From Octopus vulgaris (taxonomy: Eukaryota): 64,000 nt of DNA. The stretch covers positions 18,910,001 through 18,974,000 of the forward strand of contig OX597837.1 of NCBI GenBank assembly GCA_951406725.2, given 5' to 3'. The notes under the pieces are model-generated. The model saw only the letters and a program-made list of their open reading frames with translations, had not been told where the DNA came from and searched no databases. A program made the position numbers and the translations under genes. This document shows positions 4,675 through 59,692 of the stretch, one piece after another (the first letter of the stretch is position 1; each line of letters opens with the position of its first letter).

Positions 4675-6370
4675 ATGGCAGCTTGTGAAAGACAATCGGT
4701 GTCCAGCGATAAAAACAAAGGATCGTGTGCCTTCACCAAGAGGGCAAGTCAAATTCTGTGATAGCAACTACTGTAGGAAGATCTAGAAGTGTTGTGCAAC
4801 GAATTGTAACTCATTTTAAGTCATCATGATCAACAATTGCTTAGCCCAAAACTGGCAGACCTTGTAAAACTTCACCAAGACAGGATCCTATTATGGTTAG
4901 AATGTCACTAAAGGATAGATTTAAGAGATATCCCGCAAGTTTAGCTCCACTTCCAATGTCAATGTATCACGCAAAACAGTTTCTTGGAGGTTATGAGGTA
5001 CCAGGCTGCTTGCTCAGGCACCGGCAAAGAAACCTGATCTCCAAGGAGAATCAAAGAGCCCGTCTTTGTTTCTCTCACGAACATGTTTGAACAGAAGATC
5101 AGTGGTCGCAGGTTTATTTTAGTGATGAATCGAAGTTTAATGTGATTGGTTCCAATGGCGGGATGTACGTCTGACGAAGTGGTGAAAGGTTATCTTGTGC
5201 ATGTATTATGGTGATTGTGAAATATGGAGGAGGCAGTGTGATGATATGGGGGTGGGGTATCTCTGCTGCTGGACCTGATCCACTTATTCGCCTACAAAGA
5301 ACTGTCAATGCTGAAATCTACAAGTGGATTCTTAGACAGCATGCCCTACCACATCTCCAATCCTCGCCAGTTCAACCTCTTATCTTCATACAGGACAATG
5401 CTCCCTGTCACATTGCAAGGAGAGTCAAAGATTTTTTGAGTGATGAAGAGGTTGATTTCATGGACTGGCCACCTCAAAGTCCTGATCTCACCTCTATATA
5501 AAATGTTTGGAAGATTATTGGAGATGGGGTGTGAAGGAGAAATCTGTAACAAGTAGAGGCATTACCACTATAATACAGTTTGCCACTGTTACATTAGTTG
5601 GCATTACGAAGGAGCCTTTCATAAACTTCACAAATAATTTGATGCTATTCAGAACTGGTGGGTGATATTCTTTGTTATAAAATGATTGCCATACATGAAA
5701 TAAAATAACATAACAGGTTACAACAAAGATGTGTGAGAGAACTTCATGGTTAGGCTGGACTGTTGATTTTGCAGATATAGTTGACATGCTGTTTGGTGGT
5801 GTGTAGAGGTAACTGTTGGTTTGTTGGTCATGTGATGTTCATACAGCAATGATGTAGACAGGTGTCTGGTGGAGAAGATGAAAGCATTGACTGGTTGGTG
5901 TCAGATACATTGTTGCTGGAGACGAGTTGCGTGTGGTCAGTGGTGAGTACCAAAGATCTAGAGTGGTTGGAAACTATCTTTCCTATAGAGGTCAGTAGGC
6001 TCCCAGAGCTGGTGATTAATTTCCTGCGCATAAGGAAAAATAAACTTGCACCAACGTGATTGGGCAGGTGGAAGCTGACCAGTACAAAGAACAGGTTCGT
6101 TTAATCACGAGGTGATGTGACCTGCTGGAATGAAAAGGGCTCTGGAGCTGATATTTGGGTATTTAAGCTCAGATGAGTCAACGCGAAAACATCTCACAAT
6201 AACTGTAAATCACTTCTGCTACAAATCCATAGAACCAAGATGAACACTGGGAATTATTGAAAAATGAATGGAACAATATTACTCCATCATTTTGTAAGAA
6301 ATTAATTCAGTCCTGTGGTAACAGATATCAGGAGATCATTGGCAATAAAGGGATGTTCACAAAATATTAA
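4675..6370 (+). pseudogene. Tc1 transposase pseudogene (5545-6223 is an insertion)
   Basis: Contains an HTH region (IATTVGRSRSVVQRIV, TGRPCKTS), FSDESKF, KYGGGSVMIWG, QDNAPCH and WPPQSPDLTSI. Exactly 34 residues follow the second D, and the catalytic E codon is now TAA (5499-5501). The C-terminus EWNNITPSFCKKLIQSCGNRYQEIIGNKGMFTKY* resumes in frame after the insertion. Confidence 0.92.
5545..6223. mobile_element. Solo LTR (679 bp), probably Gypsy-type
   Basis: Termini are TGTA...TACA, with a 4-bp TSD AATC at 5541-5544 and 6224-6227. Removing the element restores the Tc1 reading frame. Confidence 0.8.
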
Positions 6371-16224: not shown

Positions 16225-16272
16225 GTCTTACAATTGTTTCCGGGATATTTTATTTATCCCTTCATCAGAGAC
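16225..16272 (-). ncRNA. Type-I hammerhead ribozyme motif
   Basis: Minus strand: GTCT-CTGATGA-A-GGGATA(AATAAAA)TATCCC-G-GAA-ACAATTGT-A-AGAC, with a GUA cleavage triplet. It lies about 65 bp from a (TA)n tract. Confidence 0.7.
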
Positions 16273-28289: not shown

Positions 28290-30238
28290 CAGAATTAATC
28301 TATGTACAGTGTGACAGAAGTTTTAAAAAATAGCAAATTAGAAAGGACCGGGCCCGGATGGAGTTCAAGGCTATTAGCTGAAGAATTTTACACAGTTGCA
28401 TGAAAAGATTATTGTGCAACTGGATGACTTTATGCAGCAAGGTCACATTCCTGCCTGGATGACAAGTGGATGAATGCTGCCATGTTTCAAGGATCCCTTC
28501 AAAGGGAACTTGGCATCAAATTTTCGACCTATTACCTGTTTGCCACTTGTGTGGAAGCTTATGACCAGTGGAAGGGTTAGACACCCATCTGCAAAGTAAC
28601 AATCTACTACCAGAAGAACAGAGAGGATACAGGAAAGAGGGTAGGGCAACAAAAAATCACTTATTACTTGATAAAATGACAATTAGAAACTGTAGACACA
28701 GATTGACAAGACTGAATGTAGCATGGCTAGATTACAAAAAAGTATATGACATGGTACCTCACAGTTGGATAGGTAAACCAATGAGCATGTTTGAAATAGC
28801 AAAAAACATAGAGAAAATGCTTAATGAAAGTATGAAACATTGGAATACTGAATTGATTGGAGGAAAACAAAAACTCGGAAAAGGAACATCAGAGATGGAA
28901 TATTCCAAGGTGATAGCTTATCTCCATTACTATTCGTATTGGTCATGTCATCACTCATTAAGATACTATGAAAAGTTAAAATTGCTTATGGTTTTGGATA
29001 ATTAAATGGTCAGATAAATCATCTCCTTTTCATGGATGATATAAAGGTTTATGTGGAAAGGGAGAAACAGCTTGGAAGTCTTGTACATACTATCTGCATT
29101 TTCTCAAAGGACATAAGTTTGAGATAGAAAAGTTTACTATATTGAAAATGAAATGAAGAAGATTTGGAAGAAGCCAGAGAATTGAAATGCCAAATGGACG
29201 AACAATGAGAGCAATTGAGAAAGGATAGTGGTATAAGTACTTAGGAATACTGGAAGCAGGCGAAATAAAAGAATGAAGAAATGAAATCAATGACCAGTAG
29301 GGAGTACACAAGGAGAGTAAGAAAATTATTGCAGTCAGAGCTGAATTCAATAAATATTATTGAAGTAATAAATTCAAGAGCAGTACCCTTAATTGGATAT
29401 GGAGTTGGAATTATAGGGCCAAAAATGATATAAAGTAACTTGCCAGAAAAATTAGAAAGTTGTTGACAATGTATGGAGCCTACCATTTGAAAGCTGAGAC
29501 CAAGATGGAAGAGGTTTAATAGCAATAGAAGAATGTGTGCAGATGGAAAGAAAAGGTGTAGTAGAGTATTTACAGAGCAGTACAAAAAAACTACTAAAGA
29601 CAATAAATAAAGAACAATTGATCAAGTGCATAATAGGAGAAAAGGACAAGAATGAAACACAAAGAGAGCCCGTCAGACATGAAGAGAAACCTCTGCATGG
29701 CCAATTTTGGAGAGCCACTGAAGGCGGAACAAAATTCTGGGCTTGGTTAAAAAAAGGGGCAATTAAGGTAGAGTCTAATTGTAGCAGCCCAAGATCAAAT
29801 GATAAAAACAAACAACTTGAGAAAAAAATAATAATGGAGAGAATGTGTCGGAAAGATGTAGAGCCTATGGAACTTGGAATGAGACAGTGGCACACATTGT
29901 GACAGAATGCTTCAAGTTGGCACAAAAAAGAGTATGAAAAAAAAAATGGTTTTGGAAGGGTGATGCCTACCCTGCATAGAGATGGAGTTACTCTGGCTGT
30001 CACTGCTTTTCCATGTCACAAAGGCAGGGATTATAGATCTTTTATCTTTTATGAATCTCAGTTATTGGACTGTGGCCATGCTGGGGCACTGCTTTGAAAG
30101 GTTCAATTGAATAAATCAACTCCAGTACTTATCTTTTTAAGCTTAGTACTTATTCTATCAGTCTCTTTTGCCAATCCACTAAGTTATGGGGGACACAAAC
30201 AAACTAATACCAGTCGTCGAATGTTGATGAGTGACAAA

Positions 30239-40170: not shown

Positions 40171-41752
40171 GCACTGGTGAGTTGATAACATTAACTTGAA
40201 TATTTTGCACAAAATAATATACTATACTAAAATAGTATTTAACATTTTATATCATTTGTTATAGTTTAGCCCCAGGTCAGCCCTGATGGAACTGGTCTAG
40301 AACCAAAGCTATTCAAGCTGTGACCACCCCGTGTTTTTGTTTTTATCTAGTGACAATATTGGCTGATGTATCCTGTATTTGAGACAGCAGAATGTGGTTT
40401 TGAGGGAAATTTAGATGCTATTTCTAGCAGATCATTCCTCATCTCACATAGAGATTCCATTGTTAACTTGTTTTCAGTGTTGTTGTTGTTGCTGCTGCTT
40501 AACTCTAGGTCAATCCTGATCAAGGGAATTTCTTATAAAAAATAACTCAAGCCATAACTATCCTTACTTTCTCTCAGGCCTTGTGTATATATAATATATA
40601 ATGAAATTATTGTATGCAGTGCCCAGGTGCACCACAACTAGGACTCATTATCCAATGTATCCCATCCTTTTCAAGATGTGTAATTTAGCAGCAGTTAAAT
40701 CTTGCTTAAATTAAGGTGTAATTTAAAGAAGATTTGACTGCTGTTTCAAGCAATTAGAATGATCATGTGAAGATATCCTCTGGTTTTCATTGGTGTACAA
40801 AGTATTGTCTTTTAATGTGCTAAGAAAGTTGTATTAAATCTATGTTGTTGTGGGTGTTTATTTTATCAGTTCTTGTGTTATTCTATTTTGCTTGTTTATG
40901 ATATTTTGAGGTGAGTTTATTGAGCGTGTTATAGTACTGAGAGAGCACTGTCTATGTGTTTAGGCTTAAGTGAGCGTCTTTTACAATAGCCCTGGGCCGA
41001 CCAATACTTTGTGGGTCAATTTGGTAAATGGAAACTGCTTAGAAGCTTATTTTGATCCTTATTGTCTCAATCACACAAAGCATACAGACCACTTGTGATC
41101 CCGAGATACCTGCTGAAGATATAAAAGGTTTCTGACAAAGAGATAAATTTAGTCACAATAAGAAGAGCTTGCAACATCCATTATGCAGCTACTGCACCTT
41201 GAGCATGAAGTAAAGCATCTTTGATGTTTATTTCCCCACCTGTACATATAATAGATAATGATGATGATAATTGTGATGATATATTTATATATAATCAAAA
41301 TTATCATCATCTTTTTAATGTCCACATTTCTTGTTTACATTGGGTTGGACAGTTTGAAAAGGATCCAGTGAGTTCAGGGACTTTATCATACTCTAGTATC
41401 AGCTTTGGCATGGTTTCTATGGCCGGATGCCCTTCCTAACACCAACCCCTTCACAGTGTGTACTGAGTGCTTTTTTGTGCTACTTACACTATTGAGGTCA
41501 CCCTGTAGCTTGTAAGCCAACAACCCCAGGGGGCGAGGAAGTTGCATTTGTATGCTAAATGGTGGTTAAGAGCAGATTCTTGTTGATTCTTATTTACAAA
41601 ATAAATATAAGAGAGTGGTCACTATATGGCTCACTCTAGCACCAGTTAATCCAAAAGGTTTCAACCACAAAAATACATGCTTCCCATGAAAGTCAGTACG
41701 ATTGTTAGCTCACACGGACAGGGCAAATAAAAAATAACAAAAATACAGATTA

Positions 41753-41834
41753 TTTTGGGACAATTGTTTCGCTATTAATGAATTAAATGTAATTTTACTT
41801 ACAAAAAAATCCACTTGTAGCTCGTCAGCCAAAA
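41753..41834 (-). ncRNA. Canonical type-I hammerhead ribozyme (inverted copy)
   Basis: Reverse complement of 42192-42273. Confidence 0.85.
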
Positions 41835-42191
41835 CTATCTGGATGAAATCCACTCAATCACACGCCAGATTTTACCATAACGATAAATACGCGTGTGGTT
41901 CAATTGATTACATCCGACGTTATAATTCAAATGCCCCAACTAACAGCGCGCCAAACTTTCACGGAAAACAAATACAGCATTTAGAAATAAATGCAGCATA
42001 ATTATAATTAATTAATAAGGGTGAGAGAATTAGATACTAATTTAATAGTATATCTATTCAACACCAAGTGGCCTAGTGCTCCGAGAAACCTGGATTTGAA
42101 TTATAACGTCGGATGTAATCAATTGAACCACACGCGTATTTATCGTTATGGTAAAATCTGGCGTGTGATTGAGTGGATTTCATCCAGATAG

Positions 42192-42273
42192 TTTTGGCTG
42201 ACGAGCTACAAGTGGATTTTTTTGTAAGTAAAATTACATTTAATTCATTAATAGCGAAACAATTGTCCCAAAA
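42192..42273 (+). ncRNA. Canonical type-I hammerhead ribozyme
   Basis: TTTTGG-CTGACGA-GCTA...TAGC-GAA-ACAATTGT-C-CCAAAA. Stem I is 6 bp and extendable, the core is fully conserved, G10.1-C11.1 is present, stem III is palindromic and the GUC cleavage site follows 42267. Confidence 0.85.
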
Positions 42274-42554
42274 TAATCTGTATTTTTGTTATTTTTTATT
42301 TGCCCTGTCCGTGTGAGCTAACAATCGTACTGACTTTCATGGGAAGCATGTATTTTTGTGGTTGAAACCTTTTGGATTAACTGGTGCTAGAGTGAGCCAT
42401 ATAGTGACCACTCTCTTATATTTATTTTGTAAAAATATTATAATATATTACAAAATATTATAATAATCCAGGTTTCTCGGAGCACTAGGCCACTTGGTGT
42501 TGAATAGATATACTATTAAATTAGTATCTAATTCTCTCACCCTTATTAATTAAT

Positions 42555-42605
<51 letters not shown>

Positions 42606-44615: not shown

Positions 44616-44621
<6 letters not shown>

Positions 44622-45315
44622 TAGTAATGCAATACTAGAGTATTGCTTTCCAGTAAAGAATAGCCCGTGAGGGAAAAATATACAAAGAAGTAAATATATG
44701 GCACAACGAAGTACCGATATTTACTGGAAATAGCGAACGTAATAATACGACGCTAATGTATAGCTTCACCGCGTATGTACTAGCAAAAATGCGTGAGTGC
44801 AACAAGCTTGAAAAAAATTGTCTTACCTCCAGGGAGAACATCTGAAAGATGAAATACCTAGAAAAGGATAATGTGGGACCGGCGCCGGTTTCAGATTTTT
44901 CAAGATATGTCTGCACCCATAAACTTGATCTATCTTCATCAGCCAAACATATACCACGACAACATTTCAGATGTTACCACATTAATGCCAATACACTCGA
45001 CTGAAACGCCGAAATGCTAACAGAACGAGAACGGTGAAGAAGTTTCAATAAATTAGTAATGCAATACTAGAGTATTGCTTTCCAGTAAAGAATAGCCCGT
45101 GAGGGAAAAATATACAAAGAAGTAAATATATGGCACAACATTATCCTTTTCAGATGTTCTCCCTGGAGGTAAGACAATTTTTTCAAGTTTGTTGCACTCA
45201 CGCATTTTTGCTAGTACATACGCGGTGAAGCTATACATTAGCGTCGTATTATTACATTCGCTATTTCCAGTAAATATCGGTACTTCGTTGTGCCATATAT
45301 TTACTTCTTTGTATA
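44616..45315. mobile_element. Young Penelope-like/retrozyme-like insertion in (TA)n with a 92-bp direct repeat and an inverted partial copy
   Basis: 44616-44707 equals 45048-45139 (period 432 nt). 45138-45315 is the reverse complement of about 44677-44874 with a small deletion. (TA)n lies on both sides. Confidence 0.8.
44871..44950 (-). ncRNA. Canonical type-I hammerhead ribozyme
   Basis: Minus strand: ATGTTTGG-CTGATGA-AGAT..TCAAG...CTTGA..ATCT-GAA-ACCGGCGCCGGT-C-CCACAT, with a GUC site and a 12-nt palindromic stem III. Confidence 0.85.
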
Positions 45316-45359
45316 TATATATATATATATATATATACATACATATATGTGTATATATA

Positions 45360-48304: not shown

Positions 48305-48376
48305 AGAGAGAAAATGTGAACATTACTGGAAAATAATTTCCTCTAAGACGTTATTTCACTAAAATTCTCAGAAGTT

Positions 48377-49420
48377 ATGTTACAACCTGTAACAAAAGTT
48401 GTGTTTATTCCAAAGTCCAAAGTTTCTATTGGTAAAAATCAAACAAAAGAATATCGTAGAGAACTCAAAGAAAATGTTAGCTCAGAAACCCCAAACATTA
48501 GCACTATATCATTGTCTTCAGTAGCAACATCTGAAAATGGTCAAGGCAGTTGCAAAGTTGAAGAACAGAGAGAAATAACTAATGATTGGATTGTTTTCCC
48601 ACAAGAATCTAAGAATTGTGCAACCATGTTTAAAACATCAATGCAAAGATCTCTTTGGAGAGAATGTAAAAACATTAAGACTTTAGCACAACCAAATACC
48701 TTTTCTCAAAGAACATTGAAAGATACGAATCTCAAAGCATCAGGTTATGAGCCAAATTCTTTAACAAAAGAACTCAGGCACTGGAGAGAACGAAAAGTAG
48801 CATTTGAAGGTACAAATGTTTTGGAAAAAGAGCTAAACCATGACTCAGTTCAACAGAATTTGAAGACTATTGAAAGTTCTTCAAAAAGTAATCTGACATT
48901 CTTTCTTCCCAGGATTTCTTCCAAAATCTCCATGTCACAGCATTCCAATAGCAAATCTATTCATAAACAATTGCAATTAACAAATATAAATAAAGTCTCT
49001 CACAGAAATTGTAACAAAGATTGTAATATATATTATAACAAACCAAAAGTAGTTTTCCCAAATTTATCTAGCTATGCTAATGAATCTCCATTGGACTTGA
49101 AAGAGCAGAAATATTTCACATGTAATTCATACTTACCTTTTGAAACTTGTGTCAATCAAAGAATGTGGAACTTGTTCAACAACACCCTTCCCTCTTCACC
49201 TCGTCGTAAAAATTTATTACTTAATTGGTACGCAAGCATTTCTGACCAATATTATCCAAAAGCTAGAACTGTCACCTCAACAAAACAGTCCATTCCTTCA
49301 TGGTTGTCCAAAGATGCTGAAGACAATATCGAAATCATTGGCACTCAGGCCTTATATCACAAAAAACATAAATATTTTGATAAAGAGTCAGCTTGGAAAC
49401 CCCCTGTTTTACATCCCTGA
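48377..49420 (+). CDS. Uncharacterised 347-aa S/K/N-rich protein with a single coding exon
   Basis: A 1044-bp non-repetitive ORF in AT-rich DNA, where such a length is unlikely by chance. It has an upstream acceptor and AATAAA at 49425-49430 right after the stop. No TE or known-domain motif was recognised. Confidence 0.7.
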   Translation: MLQPVTKVVFIPKSKVSIGKNQTKEYRRELKENVSSETPNISTISLSSVATSENGQGSCKVEEQREITNDWIVFPQESKNCATMFKTSMQRSLWRECKNIKTLAQPNTFSQRTLKDTNLKASGYEPNSLTKELRHWRERKVAFEGTNVLEKELNHDSVQQNLKTIESSSKSNLTFFLPRISSKISMSQHSNSKSIHKQLQLTNINKVSHRNCNKDCNIYYNKPKVVFPNLSSYANESPLDLKEQKYFTCNSYLPFETCVNQRMWNLFNNTLPSSPRRKNLLLNWYASISDQYYPKARTVTSTKQSIPSWLSKDAEDNIEIIGTQALYHKKHKYFDKESAWKPPVLHP

Positions 49421-56514: not shown

Positions 56515-58040
56515 CACCTCTGCTACTAACTTGGTCACCTAGATAGCGGAAACTATCTACTACCTCTAGCTTACCCACCTGTCAGTTGATGAAGTCTATT
56601 TTCTGGACATTTTTGGTGTTTATTGTACCTGTGCATCTTCCACACACAAAAGCTATTTTCCCTATTAAACTTCCTCTGATATTGCAACACATCTTACACT
56701 GGGTACATCTTATGGAGTTTCTACTTATGCCTTTTCTAGAGATTGAGCAGGGCCATCTAATTGAAGGGATTTGTGATTTGTCTGCCTTCCTACTTACTAA
56801 AATTTTGGTTTTTGCTAGGTTAACTCTAAGGCCCTTCGATTCTAAACCTTGCTTCCATACCTGAGATTTCTCTAGTTCTGGTAGTGATTCAGCTATAAGA
56901 ATAAGGTCATCAGCATAGAGGAGCTCCCAGGGACAGCTTGTCTTAAATTCCTCTGTTATTGTCTGGAGGATTATGATGAACAAGAAGGGGATGAGGACTG
57001 ATCCTTGGTGAACACTACTGCTCTCAATTCTTCACTGTACTCATTGCCAATCCTCAACTTATTGATAATGCCCCTGTACATGGCTTGTACAGCTCTCACC
57101 AATCACTCATCTATCTCTAGTTTTTACATTGGGGAAACTAGGGATAGATGACATTGTCAAAGGCTTTCTCCATGTTAACAGTCAAGTGCAGAAGTTTATA
57201 TTTGGCTATGTATTTCTCCTGCAGCTTCCTTGCCAGAAATATAGCATCAGTGGTGCTTCTCCCTGGTATAAAACCAAACTGTATCTCATCTAAACTAACC
57301 TTTTAATTAGTTGGGCTATGACCCTCTCCATAACTTTCAACACCTAATCCAACAATTTAATACCTCTGTAATTACTTCTATCTAGGGTATCACATTTACC
57401 TTTGTAGTAGTTGACTATGGTGCTGCTACACCAATCATCGAGTATGACTTGTTTGTGAACCACCTGATTTACAATATGGGTGACTAGATATTTTAAGCAT
57501 CTTAACAGGGATTCCTGATGGATTGGAAGTTTTCCCTATTTTCATATCCTTAAATGCTTTATCAACCAAGGTACTGTTGATTCAGATAGCGGGTCCCTCA
57601 CTTGGGTCAACATTTGGCAGACTCTCCTCCTCCTCCCATTCATTCTCCATGTCCAGCAGTTTTTCATAATGGCATTTCCAAGCCTCTTTCTTTACAGAAT
57701 CATTAAACACAAGGGCATCATCATCTATGTTGACACATTTCTCTCCTATGACATCACAATTTTCTCTCACACACTGTCTTGAAATCTGAAACACGTCAAA
57801 TCTTTGGTTCTCATGTCGCTAAACATAAGTAAACTTCTTTTCTCTCTTCTCCCTTGACTAGATATACCTGTCTCCTAGCTTCCCTTCTGGCTATCTGATA
57901 CAGTTCCCTGCTATCCCCACTCTTCCAGGCCTGTTTCTGTGCTCTAATGGCTTGTTTACAGCATTGTTCCACCACCACGTCACCCTAGGTCTGCATTGGA
58001 CTTTGCACCAGCTGCAGATTTGGTCTGTGGCACTCAGCAA
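56515..58040 (-). mobile_element. RTE-clade LINE RT region, decayed
   Basis: Motifs KEAWKCHYEKLL, NYRGIKLLD, QFGFIPGRSTTDAIF, VHQGSVLIP, WELLYADDL and FRYLGD. Confidence 0.9.
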
Positions 58041-58044
58041 GCTG

Positions 58045-59692
58045 GGTATCTGACATTGTAAGAGGTATCTAACATTGAACCTCTCCTTGAAGACTTGATG
58101 AAATTACAACGTGAATGGAAAGGAATCTAGAATGAAGTCAAAGAGGTTGCATCAAATCTTGAGATGGAAATCAAACTCACCCATGGGCATGGAGGCATGG
58201 GTGAGAAGAGAACAAGGATGCTTGATGACACTTGATGTCAACCTGGCAGAAATGATTGACACAGATGATTCACCAGAAGAGCCCTGTTTCAGTAAAAACT
58301 GTTTTATGTTTTGATTGATAATGTTGTTGCAGGATTAACAGAACATTTTAATGTTGTTAAGAGGTTGGCTGAAAATTTTGATTTTTTTATGGAAATATCC
58401 CACAATATCTGGAAGTGAGCAAGAAAGAAAGCAAAAGCTATGGCACATTCATATTCTGCAGATTTTATAGAAGAAATTCAACATTTGCCAGCAGTACACA
58501 AAGCTAATTTTGGAAAGCCAGAAACAAAACCTCAAGAATTGTTAAATTTGTTAACAGACTACAAATTGTGTGAAATATTTCCAAATGTTTGTATTAATTT
58601 GAGGATATTGTTGACAATTCCAGCTACAGCAGTATCAGCTGAAAGATCTTCTAATAAACTCAAACTTATCAAAAACTATTTGAGGTCTACTAAGTCTCAA
58701 ATCAGACTTGTTGATCTAGCATGACTGAGTATTGAAGCTGGCATTGCCAAATTGATTTTGATAGAGTTATTAGAACTTTTTCAAATGAGAAGCCAGAAAA
58801 GCACATTTTAATTAGTACTGTAGTTAAATGTTTGCAACAGGATCTGGAATCGGTATCACTGAAGGGGTGTCCGATCCGATCCCGTCACATTCAATTTAGT
58901 TAGATATAACAGACGAAGTCAGGTTATCTGGGAAAGACAGCAAATGTTGTTTATTACTCGTGATGGTGTACGTATTTCTGAGGGGAAACGACAGCCAAAT
59001 CTTTGTACTGCTTCTTGTTGGTTGATTGAAGTGATTCGATGTGGTCCGTTGCTAAGCCGGTGTAGAGTTCTCAGAGACTACCAAATGCACGTCTGTTCAC
59101 GAGGGCTGAAAGTGCCAGAGAGAGTGAGTGAGTGGACTGTGCCTTAGGGGTCAGTTTCCCGCACATGCGCATGGGGAAGACTTCCGGTGGCCACCCGGAA
59201 GTAGTCCCATTCTGCGCATGCGCGCTGAACCTTACACAGTAGCATCACTACATGGCTCCCCCTCGAGTGCGGAAGTACGAAAACAAGAAAATTTGTGCTT
59301 TAGGGGTCAGTTTCCCGCACATGCACATGGGGAAGACTTCCGGTGGCCACCCGGAACCTTACACAGTAGCATCACTACATGTTAAATTTGTATTTTGTTT
59401 TTCTTTTAAGAGAAATTCTTTTTTTTTTAAAGAAATTATGAATGCTTAAAAAGCATTTCACTATGAAAAAACCTAAAAGGCGATTGGTGAATGTAACCAT
59501 AAATACTGACTTATGTTGCTGTATTAACTGAATATATACATTAATTATGTTATATTTGATTGTAAAGCATTTATGAGAGTTTACATGTAGATTTACTGGG
59601 CATCAAATCCTTGATTTTAAGAAAGATATTACCTGCTTCAGGGCCCCAAGGGGGTCTTGTACCACCTTGCAAAATATCTCTTGGAGGCCCTG
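58045..59692 (+). mobile_element. hAT transposon 3' portion (C-terminal dimerisation domain), with an LTR insertion
   Basis: FPNVCINLRILLTIPATAVSAERSSNKLKLIKNYLRSTKSQIRLVDLA at 58579-58721 is the hATC signature. There is a possible terminal GGAGGCCCTG near 59683-59692. Confidence 0.8.
58819..59379 (-). mobile_element. Internally deleted LTR retroelement: partial 5' LTR, PPT and a full 434-bp 3' LTR (58819-59252)
   Basis: The LTR has TGTAGT...ACTACA ends. A minus-strand PPT, GAGGGGGAG-CCA, lies immediately before TGTAGTGATG at 59252, and a minus AATAAA is at 58950-58955. 59294-59379 duplicates the LTR start. No TSD was found. Confidence 0.7.

What the first reader, a model, noticed from the sequence alone, without database searches (positions are those of the whole stretch)
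41593..42558. Young HHR element in head-to-head inverted and circularly permuted arrangement
Seen in the sequence: in ribozyme-sense orientation the left copy reads C-B-A (42096 down to 41593) and the right copy reads A-spacer-C (42094-42558). The arms match with no mismatch I could find (340 bp and 94 bp), are CpG-rich, and each A block holds a textbook GUC hammerhead. The A-to-C junction on one side and the C-B-A order on the other imply a tandem or circular template of about 535 nt with no ORF. Inference: either a Penelope pseudo-LTR with the typical inverted 5' copy, or reverse transcription of a circular retrozyme-like RNA. Read-through transcription would make a 340-bp dsRNA, a potential ADAR or siRNA substrate.
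Basis: partly seen in the sequence, partly recalled or inferred. Interest (0 to 1): 0.8.

Follow-up and report, generated by a model that had tools for sequence, protein, structure and literature searches.

The report
Octopus hammerhead retroelement, head-to-head insertion
This is one young copy of an abundant octopus repeat whose 535-letter protein-free unit carries a hammerhead motif predicted to cut its own RNA, and its two back-to-back arms were likely pasted in by a Penelope-type retrotransposon enzyme; the kind of element is known, and whether an RNA circle is the template is untested.

Summary
The arms are exact (340 and 94 nt) and each carries a type I hammerhead (site 42267/42268); core canonical, stem III minimal, no Rfam hit. 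The window is octopus DNA. Public contigs show that blocks A-spacer-C-B close into an ORF-less 535-nt unit: both joints that occur once in the window recur in other runs. The family is high-copy, and 13 other head-to-head joints at single-copy depth show that the inversion is a recurrent insertion pattern, not an artefact. One probable RNA run has 11 A>G changes, all on the ribozyme strand, consistent with A-to-I editing of sense transcripts. Not shown: cleavage, circles, the partner enzyme, transcription of this locus. The locus cannot make a circle itself (one ribozyme per strand). This scan already noted other such families (356-544 nt) elsewhere in this genome; none matched by sequence. 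New member of a known kind; interest 0.35.

The parts
41593..41932 (-). Block A of the left arm (340 nt); its 3' end at 41593 is the left end of the insertion
41752..41835 (-). Type I hammerhead of the left arm, predicted cleavage after 41759
41933..42002 (-). Block B (70 nt), present once; B-to-A joint recurs in 4 of 4 runs laid
42003..42096 (-). Block C of the left arm (94 nt); 5'-truncated end of the left arm
42094..42096 (.). 3-nt overlap (ATT) where the 5' ends of the two arms meet head to head
42094..42433 (+). Block A of the right arm; holds the 11 A>G sites seen in run X10 (42154-42401) and the family-rare G at 42346 (mirror 41680)
42191..42274 (+). Type I hammerhead: stem I 42191-42197/42268-42274, core CUGACGA 42198-42204, stem II domain 42205-42255, GAAA 42256-42259, palindromic stem III, GUC with predicted cleavage after 42267
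42434..42464 (+). 31-nt AT-rich spacer; part of the family unit (variants follow A and precede C in other runs), not a junction scar
42465..42558 (+). Block C of the right arm; its 3' end is the right end of the insertion, 125 nt downstream of the other arm's end on the unit (last TA letters may belong to the target)
42559..42604 (.). (TA)n(TG)n microsatellite, the likely target; an old SINE-like repeat follows

Best explanation
The locus is one young insertion of an abundant, ORF-less 535-nt octopus repeat with a type I hammerhead motif, laid down as two 5'-truncated arms joined head to head, likely by the reverse transcriptase and endonuclease of a Penelope-like element (PLE) acting in trans. 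Shown: the arms, the motif, the closed unit, high copy number, recurrence of head-to-head joints, TA-repeat neighbours. Inferred steps: (1) source copies are transcribed in ribozyme sense, and some RNA is A-to-I edited; (2) a PLE enzyme cuts both strands at the edge of a TA tract; (3) each DNA end primes cDNA at an internal start point on the unit RNA, one at the end of C and one at the end of A, 125 nt apart; (4) the cDNAs run 465 and 504 nt, both across the ribozyme site, so the template was uncut there: an RNA circle or an uncleaved tandem transcript, about even odds; (5) the two 5' ends join through ATT. The product has one ribozyme per strand, so it would be a dead-end copy that cannot excise a monomer in cis. 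Confidence about 0.85 for the class of element, 0.55 for two-ended priming, 0.45 for a circular template.
For: Closed unit: B-to-A joint in 4 of 4 runs; spacer-to-C joint in 3 of 4 and as loose ends in X1, X2, X3; A-to-spacer loose ends in 4 of 4, one of them 125 nt long = spacer + C. Abundance: 2246, 4340 and 1163 contigs laid from three DNA-like runs; single contigs at depth 2643 (X1) and 4993 (X3) against unique-flank depth 51 and 44-48; 20 of 24 listed runs, 11 studies, 9 coded organism labels hold 0.77-0.98 of the words. Recurrent inversion: 11 of 15 rows of the joint table plus 2 more in table 5c join antisense C or B to sense A at different points, depth 11-48, with 0-5 shared or a few inserted letters. 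0 of these 13 sense arms start at 42268 and 4 of 13 cross it. TA repeats abut copies at 41998, 42003, 42285, 42316. Youth: identical arms; X2 and X3 each have a 209-nt contig that matches the left flank to 41585 and goes on for 67 letters unlike the element, likely an empty site. Editing: 11 A>G sites at 6-40% of depth in X10 and at most 0.2% in three DNA-like runs, 11 of 11 with a 5' A or U. Literature: inverted 5'-truncated copy, partial tandems, (TA)n bias (PMC8557442); head-to-head is the usual order (PMC3846280); a PLE protein cuts and extends both strands and starts at two internal RNA sites, on uncleaved RNA (PMC11167929).
Against: No PLE enzyme was tied to this family: none among 113 window ORFs scanned, and 0 hits for four short motifs in the PLE supplement of PMC8557442. 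The 125-nt stagger is far longer than the 30-40 nt PLE tail. That the two ends are fixed start points rests on this locus, on contig breaks at exactly 41593 and 42003 in X10 and on three loose ends near the end of C; it was not tabulated over copies. The 13 joints are single contigs with 20-29 nt on the short side at 90% likeness; the 2 from X1 are weaker because that run carries a recurring linker-like palindrome. No listed contig bridges this locus's own three junctions (32 of about 7900 and 32 of about 14500 pieces shown). The 67 letters of the putative empty site were not printed. X10 is only guessed to be RNA, has no matched DNA, and its edits come from a few contigs (P 8e-5 if 11 independent sites, 0.03 if four events). 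The unit folds better than shuffles on both strands (z -6.3 sense, -5.7 antisense), so folding does not prove selection on the RNA; edited As are no more paired than other As (7.0 against 7.4 of 11 neighbours). In the Xenopus study 8 of 9 tested retrozyme dimers did not cleave.
Confidence: 0.7

Rival explanations
1. Same family and enzyme class, but the second arm comes from a separate event: fold-back self-priming or an antisense template (as proposed for rotifer PLEs), or a template jump on linear tandem RNA, with no circle involved.
For: PMC3846280 proposes self-priming on an antisense template for head-to-head PLE copies. PMC11167929 found tandem transcripts and uncleaved RNA to be the substrate. 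All joints seen here fit a tandem transcript as well as a circle.
Against: No palindrome sits at the central junction, only ATT; the arms start at different points of the unit and are not a mirror image. X10's edits are sense-only, which gives no sign of antisense RNA.
Confidence: 0.15
2. The locus is the stump of an autonomous PLE: a pseudo-LTR with its inverted 5' copy, the ORF lost by truncation.
For: The layout is the standard PLE one; paired opposite-strand hammerheads 100-700 bp apart were read as truncated PLEs in PMC4209133. Related sequences leave the unit at 42174 and 42307 in X2, X3 and X10 and could lead to an ORF.
Against: Upstream of A lie B and C, and upstream of C lie the spacer and A again: the map closes at 535 nt, with each joint in several runs; the share of laid contigs running on unlike rounds to 0 in the three DNA-like runs.
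Confidence: 0.07
3. A DNA-level satellite or repair product: a repeat that inherited a hammerhead and was inverted by replication slippage or break repair.
For: Microhomology and short inserts at joints also mark end-joining repair; Li et al. allow local amplification as satellite DNA.
Against: 13 further independent head-to-head joints, TA-tract neighbours, a likely empty site, and a second unrelated hammerhead family with the same layout 2 kb away point to an insertion mechanism.
Confidence: 0.05
4. The inversion is an assembly or chimeric-read artefact.
For: Arms are 100% identical, and no listed contig bridges the central junction.
Against: The structure is a permuted inversion, not a mirror; each arm has a block the other lacks, both confirmed in other runs; equivalent joints recur at single-copy depth.
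Confidence: 0.03

Closest known systems
Animal non-LTR retrozymes (PMC7229834: passages and Discussion read; bioRxiv 10.64898/2026.07.22.740005: parts 1-3 of 5 read)
   Same: ORF-less, low-GC unit with one type I hammerhead; 535 nt lies in the reported 51-972 bp range; high copy; monomer offspring common; PLE partner proposed.
   Different: This locus is not a same-strand tandem but two permuted near-monomers head to head; longer than the mussel units (350-390 bp); circles and cleavage not shown; neither paper's text as seen covers octopus.
Insertions of endonuclease-bearing Penelope-like elements (PMC8557442 and PMC3846280, passages read; PMC11167929, parts 1-2 of 4 read)
   Same: Inverted 5'-truncated copy head to head, staggered 3' ends, microhomology join, TA-tract target, hammerhead near the end.
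   Different: No RT/GIY-YIG ORF; stagger 125 nt instead of a 30-40 nt tail; no homology to a named PLE shown; the Hydra-1_Obim hammerhead listed in the supplement has a different sequence.
Minimal, dimer-dependent type I hammerheads of metazoan PLEs (PMC4209133, passages read)
   Same: Short stem III with palindromic loop, G10.1-C11.1 pair, enlarged helix II; opposite-strand pairs 100-700 bp apart already noted.
   Different: Stem II domain is 51 nt, stem I is 7 bp with a further 5-bp extension, and there is no extra base between positions 9 and 10.1.
LINE-1 twin priming (recalled; only a search listing seen, 10.1101/2024.08.27.596794)
   Same: Both ends of a DNA break prime cDNA, giving a 5' inversion joined by microhomology.
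   Different: In LINE-1 the two cDNAs copy non-overlapping parts of one linear RNA (recalled); here they overlap by 434 nt, which needs two RNAs, a tandem RNA or a circle.

Membership tests
Type I hammerhead ribozyme | Core CUGANGA, GAAA, NUH with stems I, II, III in type I order | tested here: met
   0 hits in 30 shuffles
Type I hammerhead ribozyme | Match to an Rfam hammerhead model | tested here: not met
   likely owing to the 51-nt stem II and 2-bp stem III (inference)
Type I hammerhead ribozyme | Active fold accessible as monomer | tested here: inconclusive
   6.9 kcal/mol above the minimum-energy fold; the stem III palindrome forms an 8-bp duplex with a second copy, -6.4 kcal/mol
Type I hammerhead ribozyme | Self-cleavage | not testable with these tools
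   Only hint: one X3 contig resumes exactly at 42268 after a 66-nt deletion
Animal non-LTR retrozyme | Non-coding, low-GC repeat unit of some hundred nt with one type I hammerhead | tested here: met
   535 nt, 34% GC, longest ATG frame 19/52 aa, joints in other runs
Animal non-LTR retrozyme | Two consecutive same-strand units with hammerheads ('active' locus in Li et al.) | tested here: not met
   One hammerhead per strand here; arms are 94% and 87% of a unit, i.e. monomer offspring by that paper's rule. Arrays elsewhere not testable (no genome held)
Animal non-LTR retrozyme | Transcribed | tested here: inconclusive
   X10 (guessed RNA) covers 30 of 30 bins and shows strand-specific A>G changes; family level only
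Animal non-LTR retrozyme | Accumulates as circular RNA | not testable with these tools
   Contigs cannot tell a circle from a tandem transcript
Autonomous EN+ Penelope-like element | ORF with RT and GIY-YIG endonuclease | tested here: not met
PLE-type insertion | Inverted 5'-truncated copy adjacent at the 5' end | tested here: met
   This locus and 13 other joints
PLE-type insertion | 30-40 nt tail at one end | tested here: not met
   Stagger is 125 nt
PLE-type insertion | Insertion at (TA)n or AT-rich DNA | tested here: met
   Right flank (TA)n; TA loose ends in X2 and X10
PLE-type insertion | Target-site duplication | tested here: inconclusive
   Both ends meet TA; empty-site letters not printed
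PLE-type insertion | Homology to the pseudo-LTR of a known PLE | tested here: inconclusive
   0 hits for short motifs in one supplement (Naiad, Chlamys, Hydra); Repbase Neptune, Nematis and Poseidon families not available

The most novel reading that the evidence does not exclude
A dimeric Penelope enzyme copies one retrozyme RNA circle from both ends of a DNA break, starting at two fixed sites 125 nt apart, each polymerase displacing the other's strand, so that one 535-nt molecule yields 969 nt of head-to-head DNA; and because octopus edits these RNAs heavily, A-to-I edits get written into the genome (the G at 42346, in both arms, is 29% of depth in the probable RNA run but 0.1-6.6% in DNA runs). 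That would explain the long-unexplained inverted pseudo-LTRs and tails of Penelope elements and give a heritable route from RNA editing to DNA change.
Probability: 0.25. Interest if true: 0.7.

Novelty: new member of a known kind. Interest (0 to 1): 0.35.

Why it matters
As a class it is known: animal hammerhead repeats that depend on Penelope-like elements. Seven literature searches listed no paper describing such units in octopus, though subscription papers and several supplements were out of reach. The value lies in the anatomy: a young, high-copy family whose insertions record both cDNA start points and both truncation points lets one test, with an octopus assembly alone, how Penelope enzymes make inverted copies and whether retrozymes move through circles, a step proposed but not demonstrated in the papers read. 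Editing of these RNAs adds a testable link to cephalopod ADAR activity.

Tried and rejected
No whole genome is held, so no genome-wide table of copies. Rfam: no hammerhead hit. My first motif regex found nothing through a coding flaw and was replaced; the strict version missed two further cores found by a looser scan. Pattern scans for relatives: 0 loci in metagenome contigs, 1 locus on a second scan that is a chance 20-nt match in 56% GC DNA without the rest of the motif (L001), 0 in viral contigs. Pfam on 113 low-complexity-filtered ORFs of 65 aa or more: no GIY-YIG; two RVT_1, one DDE_3, one hAT fragment, none near the locus. No RNA holder is on record in the run search. X10 has no cover of the unique left flank and X1 none at 41492-41579: no evidence either way on read-through or on the allele. 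Strand-specific folding as proof of RNA selection: rejected, both strands beat their own shuffles. Monomer fold as the ADAR substrate: not supported. Shared rare alleles as proof of one template molecule: rejected as proof; the arms agree at 7 of 7 polymorphic sites (window allele share 0.1-6.6% at the rarest), which shows one source lineage only. No similarity between this element and the neighbour at 44616-45316 (best E 1.0). Supplement of PMC7229834 unreadable and bioRxiv supplements closed; they may list cephalopod units.

Full report
Observation. The sequence at 41593-42558 is as described. The longest exact inverted matches are 340 nt (41593-41932 with 42094-42433, block A) and 94 nt (42003-42096 with 42465-42558, block C). 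In ribozyme sense the left arm is C-B-A (504 nt, minus strand) and the right arm A-spacer-C (465 nt, plus strand); the blocks sum to 535 nt and the 5' ends of the arms overlap by ATT. No other copy lies in the window. CpG is undepleted (o/e 1.00 against a median of 0.24). The closed unit has no ATG frame above 52 aa.

Ribozyme. Each A block holds a type I hammerhead with an intact core and a GUC site (cleavage predicted after 42267 and 41759); 30 of 30 shuffled windows gave no hit. It is of the minimal kind: 2-bp stem III with a palindromic loop that could pair with a second copy, and a 51-nt stem II domain. Rfam does not recognise it. The lowest-energy fold pairs the core with the GUC and is 6.9 kcal/mol below the active fold. 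PMC4209133 (passages) describes such motifs in PLE pseudo-LTRs as dimer-dependent and weakly active, and already notes opposite-strand pairs 100-700 bp apart. The two ribozymes here are on opposite strands, so no transcript of this locus holds two.

Host. The 357-aa ORF at 48347-49420 is 99% identical to an Octopus sinensis protein: the window is octopus DNA. No assembly was available.

Family. 20 of 24 listed runs, from 11 studies and 9 coded organism labels, hold 0.77-0.98 of the left arm's words. Laying 41933-42464 on four runs gave 2246, 4340, 1163 and 57 contigs. Single contigs reach 50-100 times the depth of unique flank, so at least that many near-identical copies exist, probably hundreds (inference; the tool's summed depth is no copy number). 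The B-to-A joint is in 4 of 4 runs, the spacer-to-C joint in 3 of 4, and spacer variants follow A in 4 of 4. The spacer therefore belongs to the unit and the map closes at 535 nt without an ORF.

Inversion. Because the laid stretch is antisense on the left and sense on the right, a 'skip' from C or B into A is another head-to-head insertion. There are 13 such joints (11 of 15 rows in table 5, 2 more only in table 5c; 2 in X1, 9 in X2, 2 in X3), all at different points and at depth 11-48, near single-copy depth. The tables are cut, each joint is one contig with 20-29 nt on its short side, and X1 carries a linker-like palindrome, so its two are weaker. None of the 13 sense arms starts at the cleavage site; 4 cross it, as do both arms here. 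This locus's own junctions were not bridged by any listed piece. In X2 and X3 a 209-nt contig matches the left flank up to 41585 and continues for 67 letters that are not the element: likely an empty site, letters not printed. Copies abut TA repeats at several points.

RNA. In X10, guessed to be RNA, 12 of 15 listed differences are A>G on the ribozyme strand; 11 of them are at most 0.2% in the three DNA-like runs and 6-40% in X10, and all 11 have a 5' A or U, as expected for ADAR (recalled). No T>C change is confined to X10. This suggests edited sense transcripts of the family. It argues mildly against read-through palindromes as the substrate, but the monomer fold does not explain the sites either, there is no matched DNA, and the sites come from few contigs. 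Both arms of this locus carry G at 42346 where the family has A; G is 29% of depth in X10, 6.6%, 0.9% and 0.1% in X1, X2, X3. It may be a fixed edit, but its share in X1 suggests an already amplified sub-lineage, so it does not prove one template molecule.

Mechanism. PLE insertions are described as partial tandems with an inverted 5'-truncated copy and a tail at one end, often in (TA)n (PMC8557442, passages), usually head to head and sometimes joined by microhomology (PMC3846280, passages). A purified PLE protein cuts and extends both strands of AT-rich DNA, starts at two internal RNA sites whose distance equals the tail, and uses uncleaved RNA (PMC11167929, parts 1-2 of 4). Applied here (inference): both DNA ends primed cDNA on unit RNA, one from the end of C and one from the end of A, and the truncated products joined at ATT. 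The arms overlap by 434 nt and both cross the ribozyme site, which needs a circle, a tandem transcript or two RNAs of one lineage; I cannot separate these. The 125-nt stagger exceeds the known tail, and the partner enzyme was not found.

Comparison. The unit fits animal non-LTR retrozymes (PMC7229834, passages and Discussion), for which circles are shown in coral, mussel and axolotl and PLEs were proposed as partners; bioRxiv 10.64898/2026.07.22.740005 (parts 1-3 of 5) links them to PLE pseudo-LTRs, gives units of 51-972 bp, and found cleavage in 1 of 9 tested. By its rules this locus is a pair of monomer offspring, not an active array. I file it as a copy of a new retrozyme-type family, not as an autonomous PLE. 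Seven searches listed no paper on octopus units. Earlier unchecked notes of this scan describe families of 356, 359/360, 362, 483/485, 491 and 544 nt with the same layout in this genome; none matched by sequence. From them I took the wording of two fixed start points and the lead on fixed edits; they are not independent support.

Verdict. Interest 0.35. The boldest open reading, two-ended copying of one edited RNA circle, has probability about 0.25 and would merit 0.7.

Noticed in passing
window 44616-45316: A second, unrelated hammerhead element between two TA tracts with the same layout: 432-nt unit (92-nt exact direct repeat at 44616 and 45048), main arm 524 nt on the minus strand, inverted arm 177 nt, 3' ends staggered by 62 nt, predicted cleavage after 44877, 10-nt palindromic stem III loop. 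The inverted arm begins 4 nt after the cleavage site, lacks 17 nt and is 98% identical to the main arm.
   Followed up: partly
window 16225-16272, minus strand: A third hammerhead-like core (CUGAUGA...GAAA, same 6-nt palindrome, GUA site, 4-bp stem I) about 70 nt from a TA tract; likely an old truncated PLE-type end.
   Followed up: no
window 42174 and 42307 (loose ends in X2, X3, X10): Related sequences share part of block A and then diverge at the same two points in several runs; candidate sister families or the autonomous partner.
   Followed up: no
window 42201-42268 and 42425-42188 (run X3): One copy has a 66-nt deletion ending exactly at the predicted cleavage site; another joint returns from 42425 to 42188, suggesting a shorter unit of about 245 nt.
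   Followed up: no
window 42272-42275: Three of the A>G sites in X10 lie in or beside the 3' strand of hammerhead stem I, so editing could weaken the ribozyme fold.
   Followed up: no
window 41030-41310: X1 matches this stretch with one long contig, while X2 and X3 show an opposite-strand joint at 41258-41308, suggesting another polymorphic insertion or rearrangement next to an AT-rich palindrome.
   Followed up: no
window 48347-49420 (+): 357-aa ORF without Pfam match, 99% identical to uncharacterised Octopus sinensis LOC118767748.
   Followed up: partly
window 5175-5498, 28565-29002, 56585-57031, 58419-58721: Fragments of DDE_3 transposase, two reverse transcriptases (RVT_1) and a hAT dimerisation domain.
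   Followed up: no
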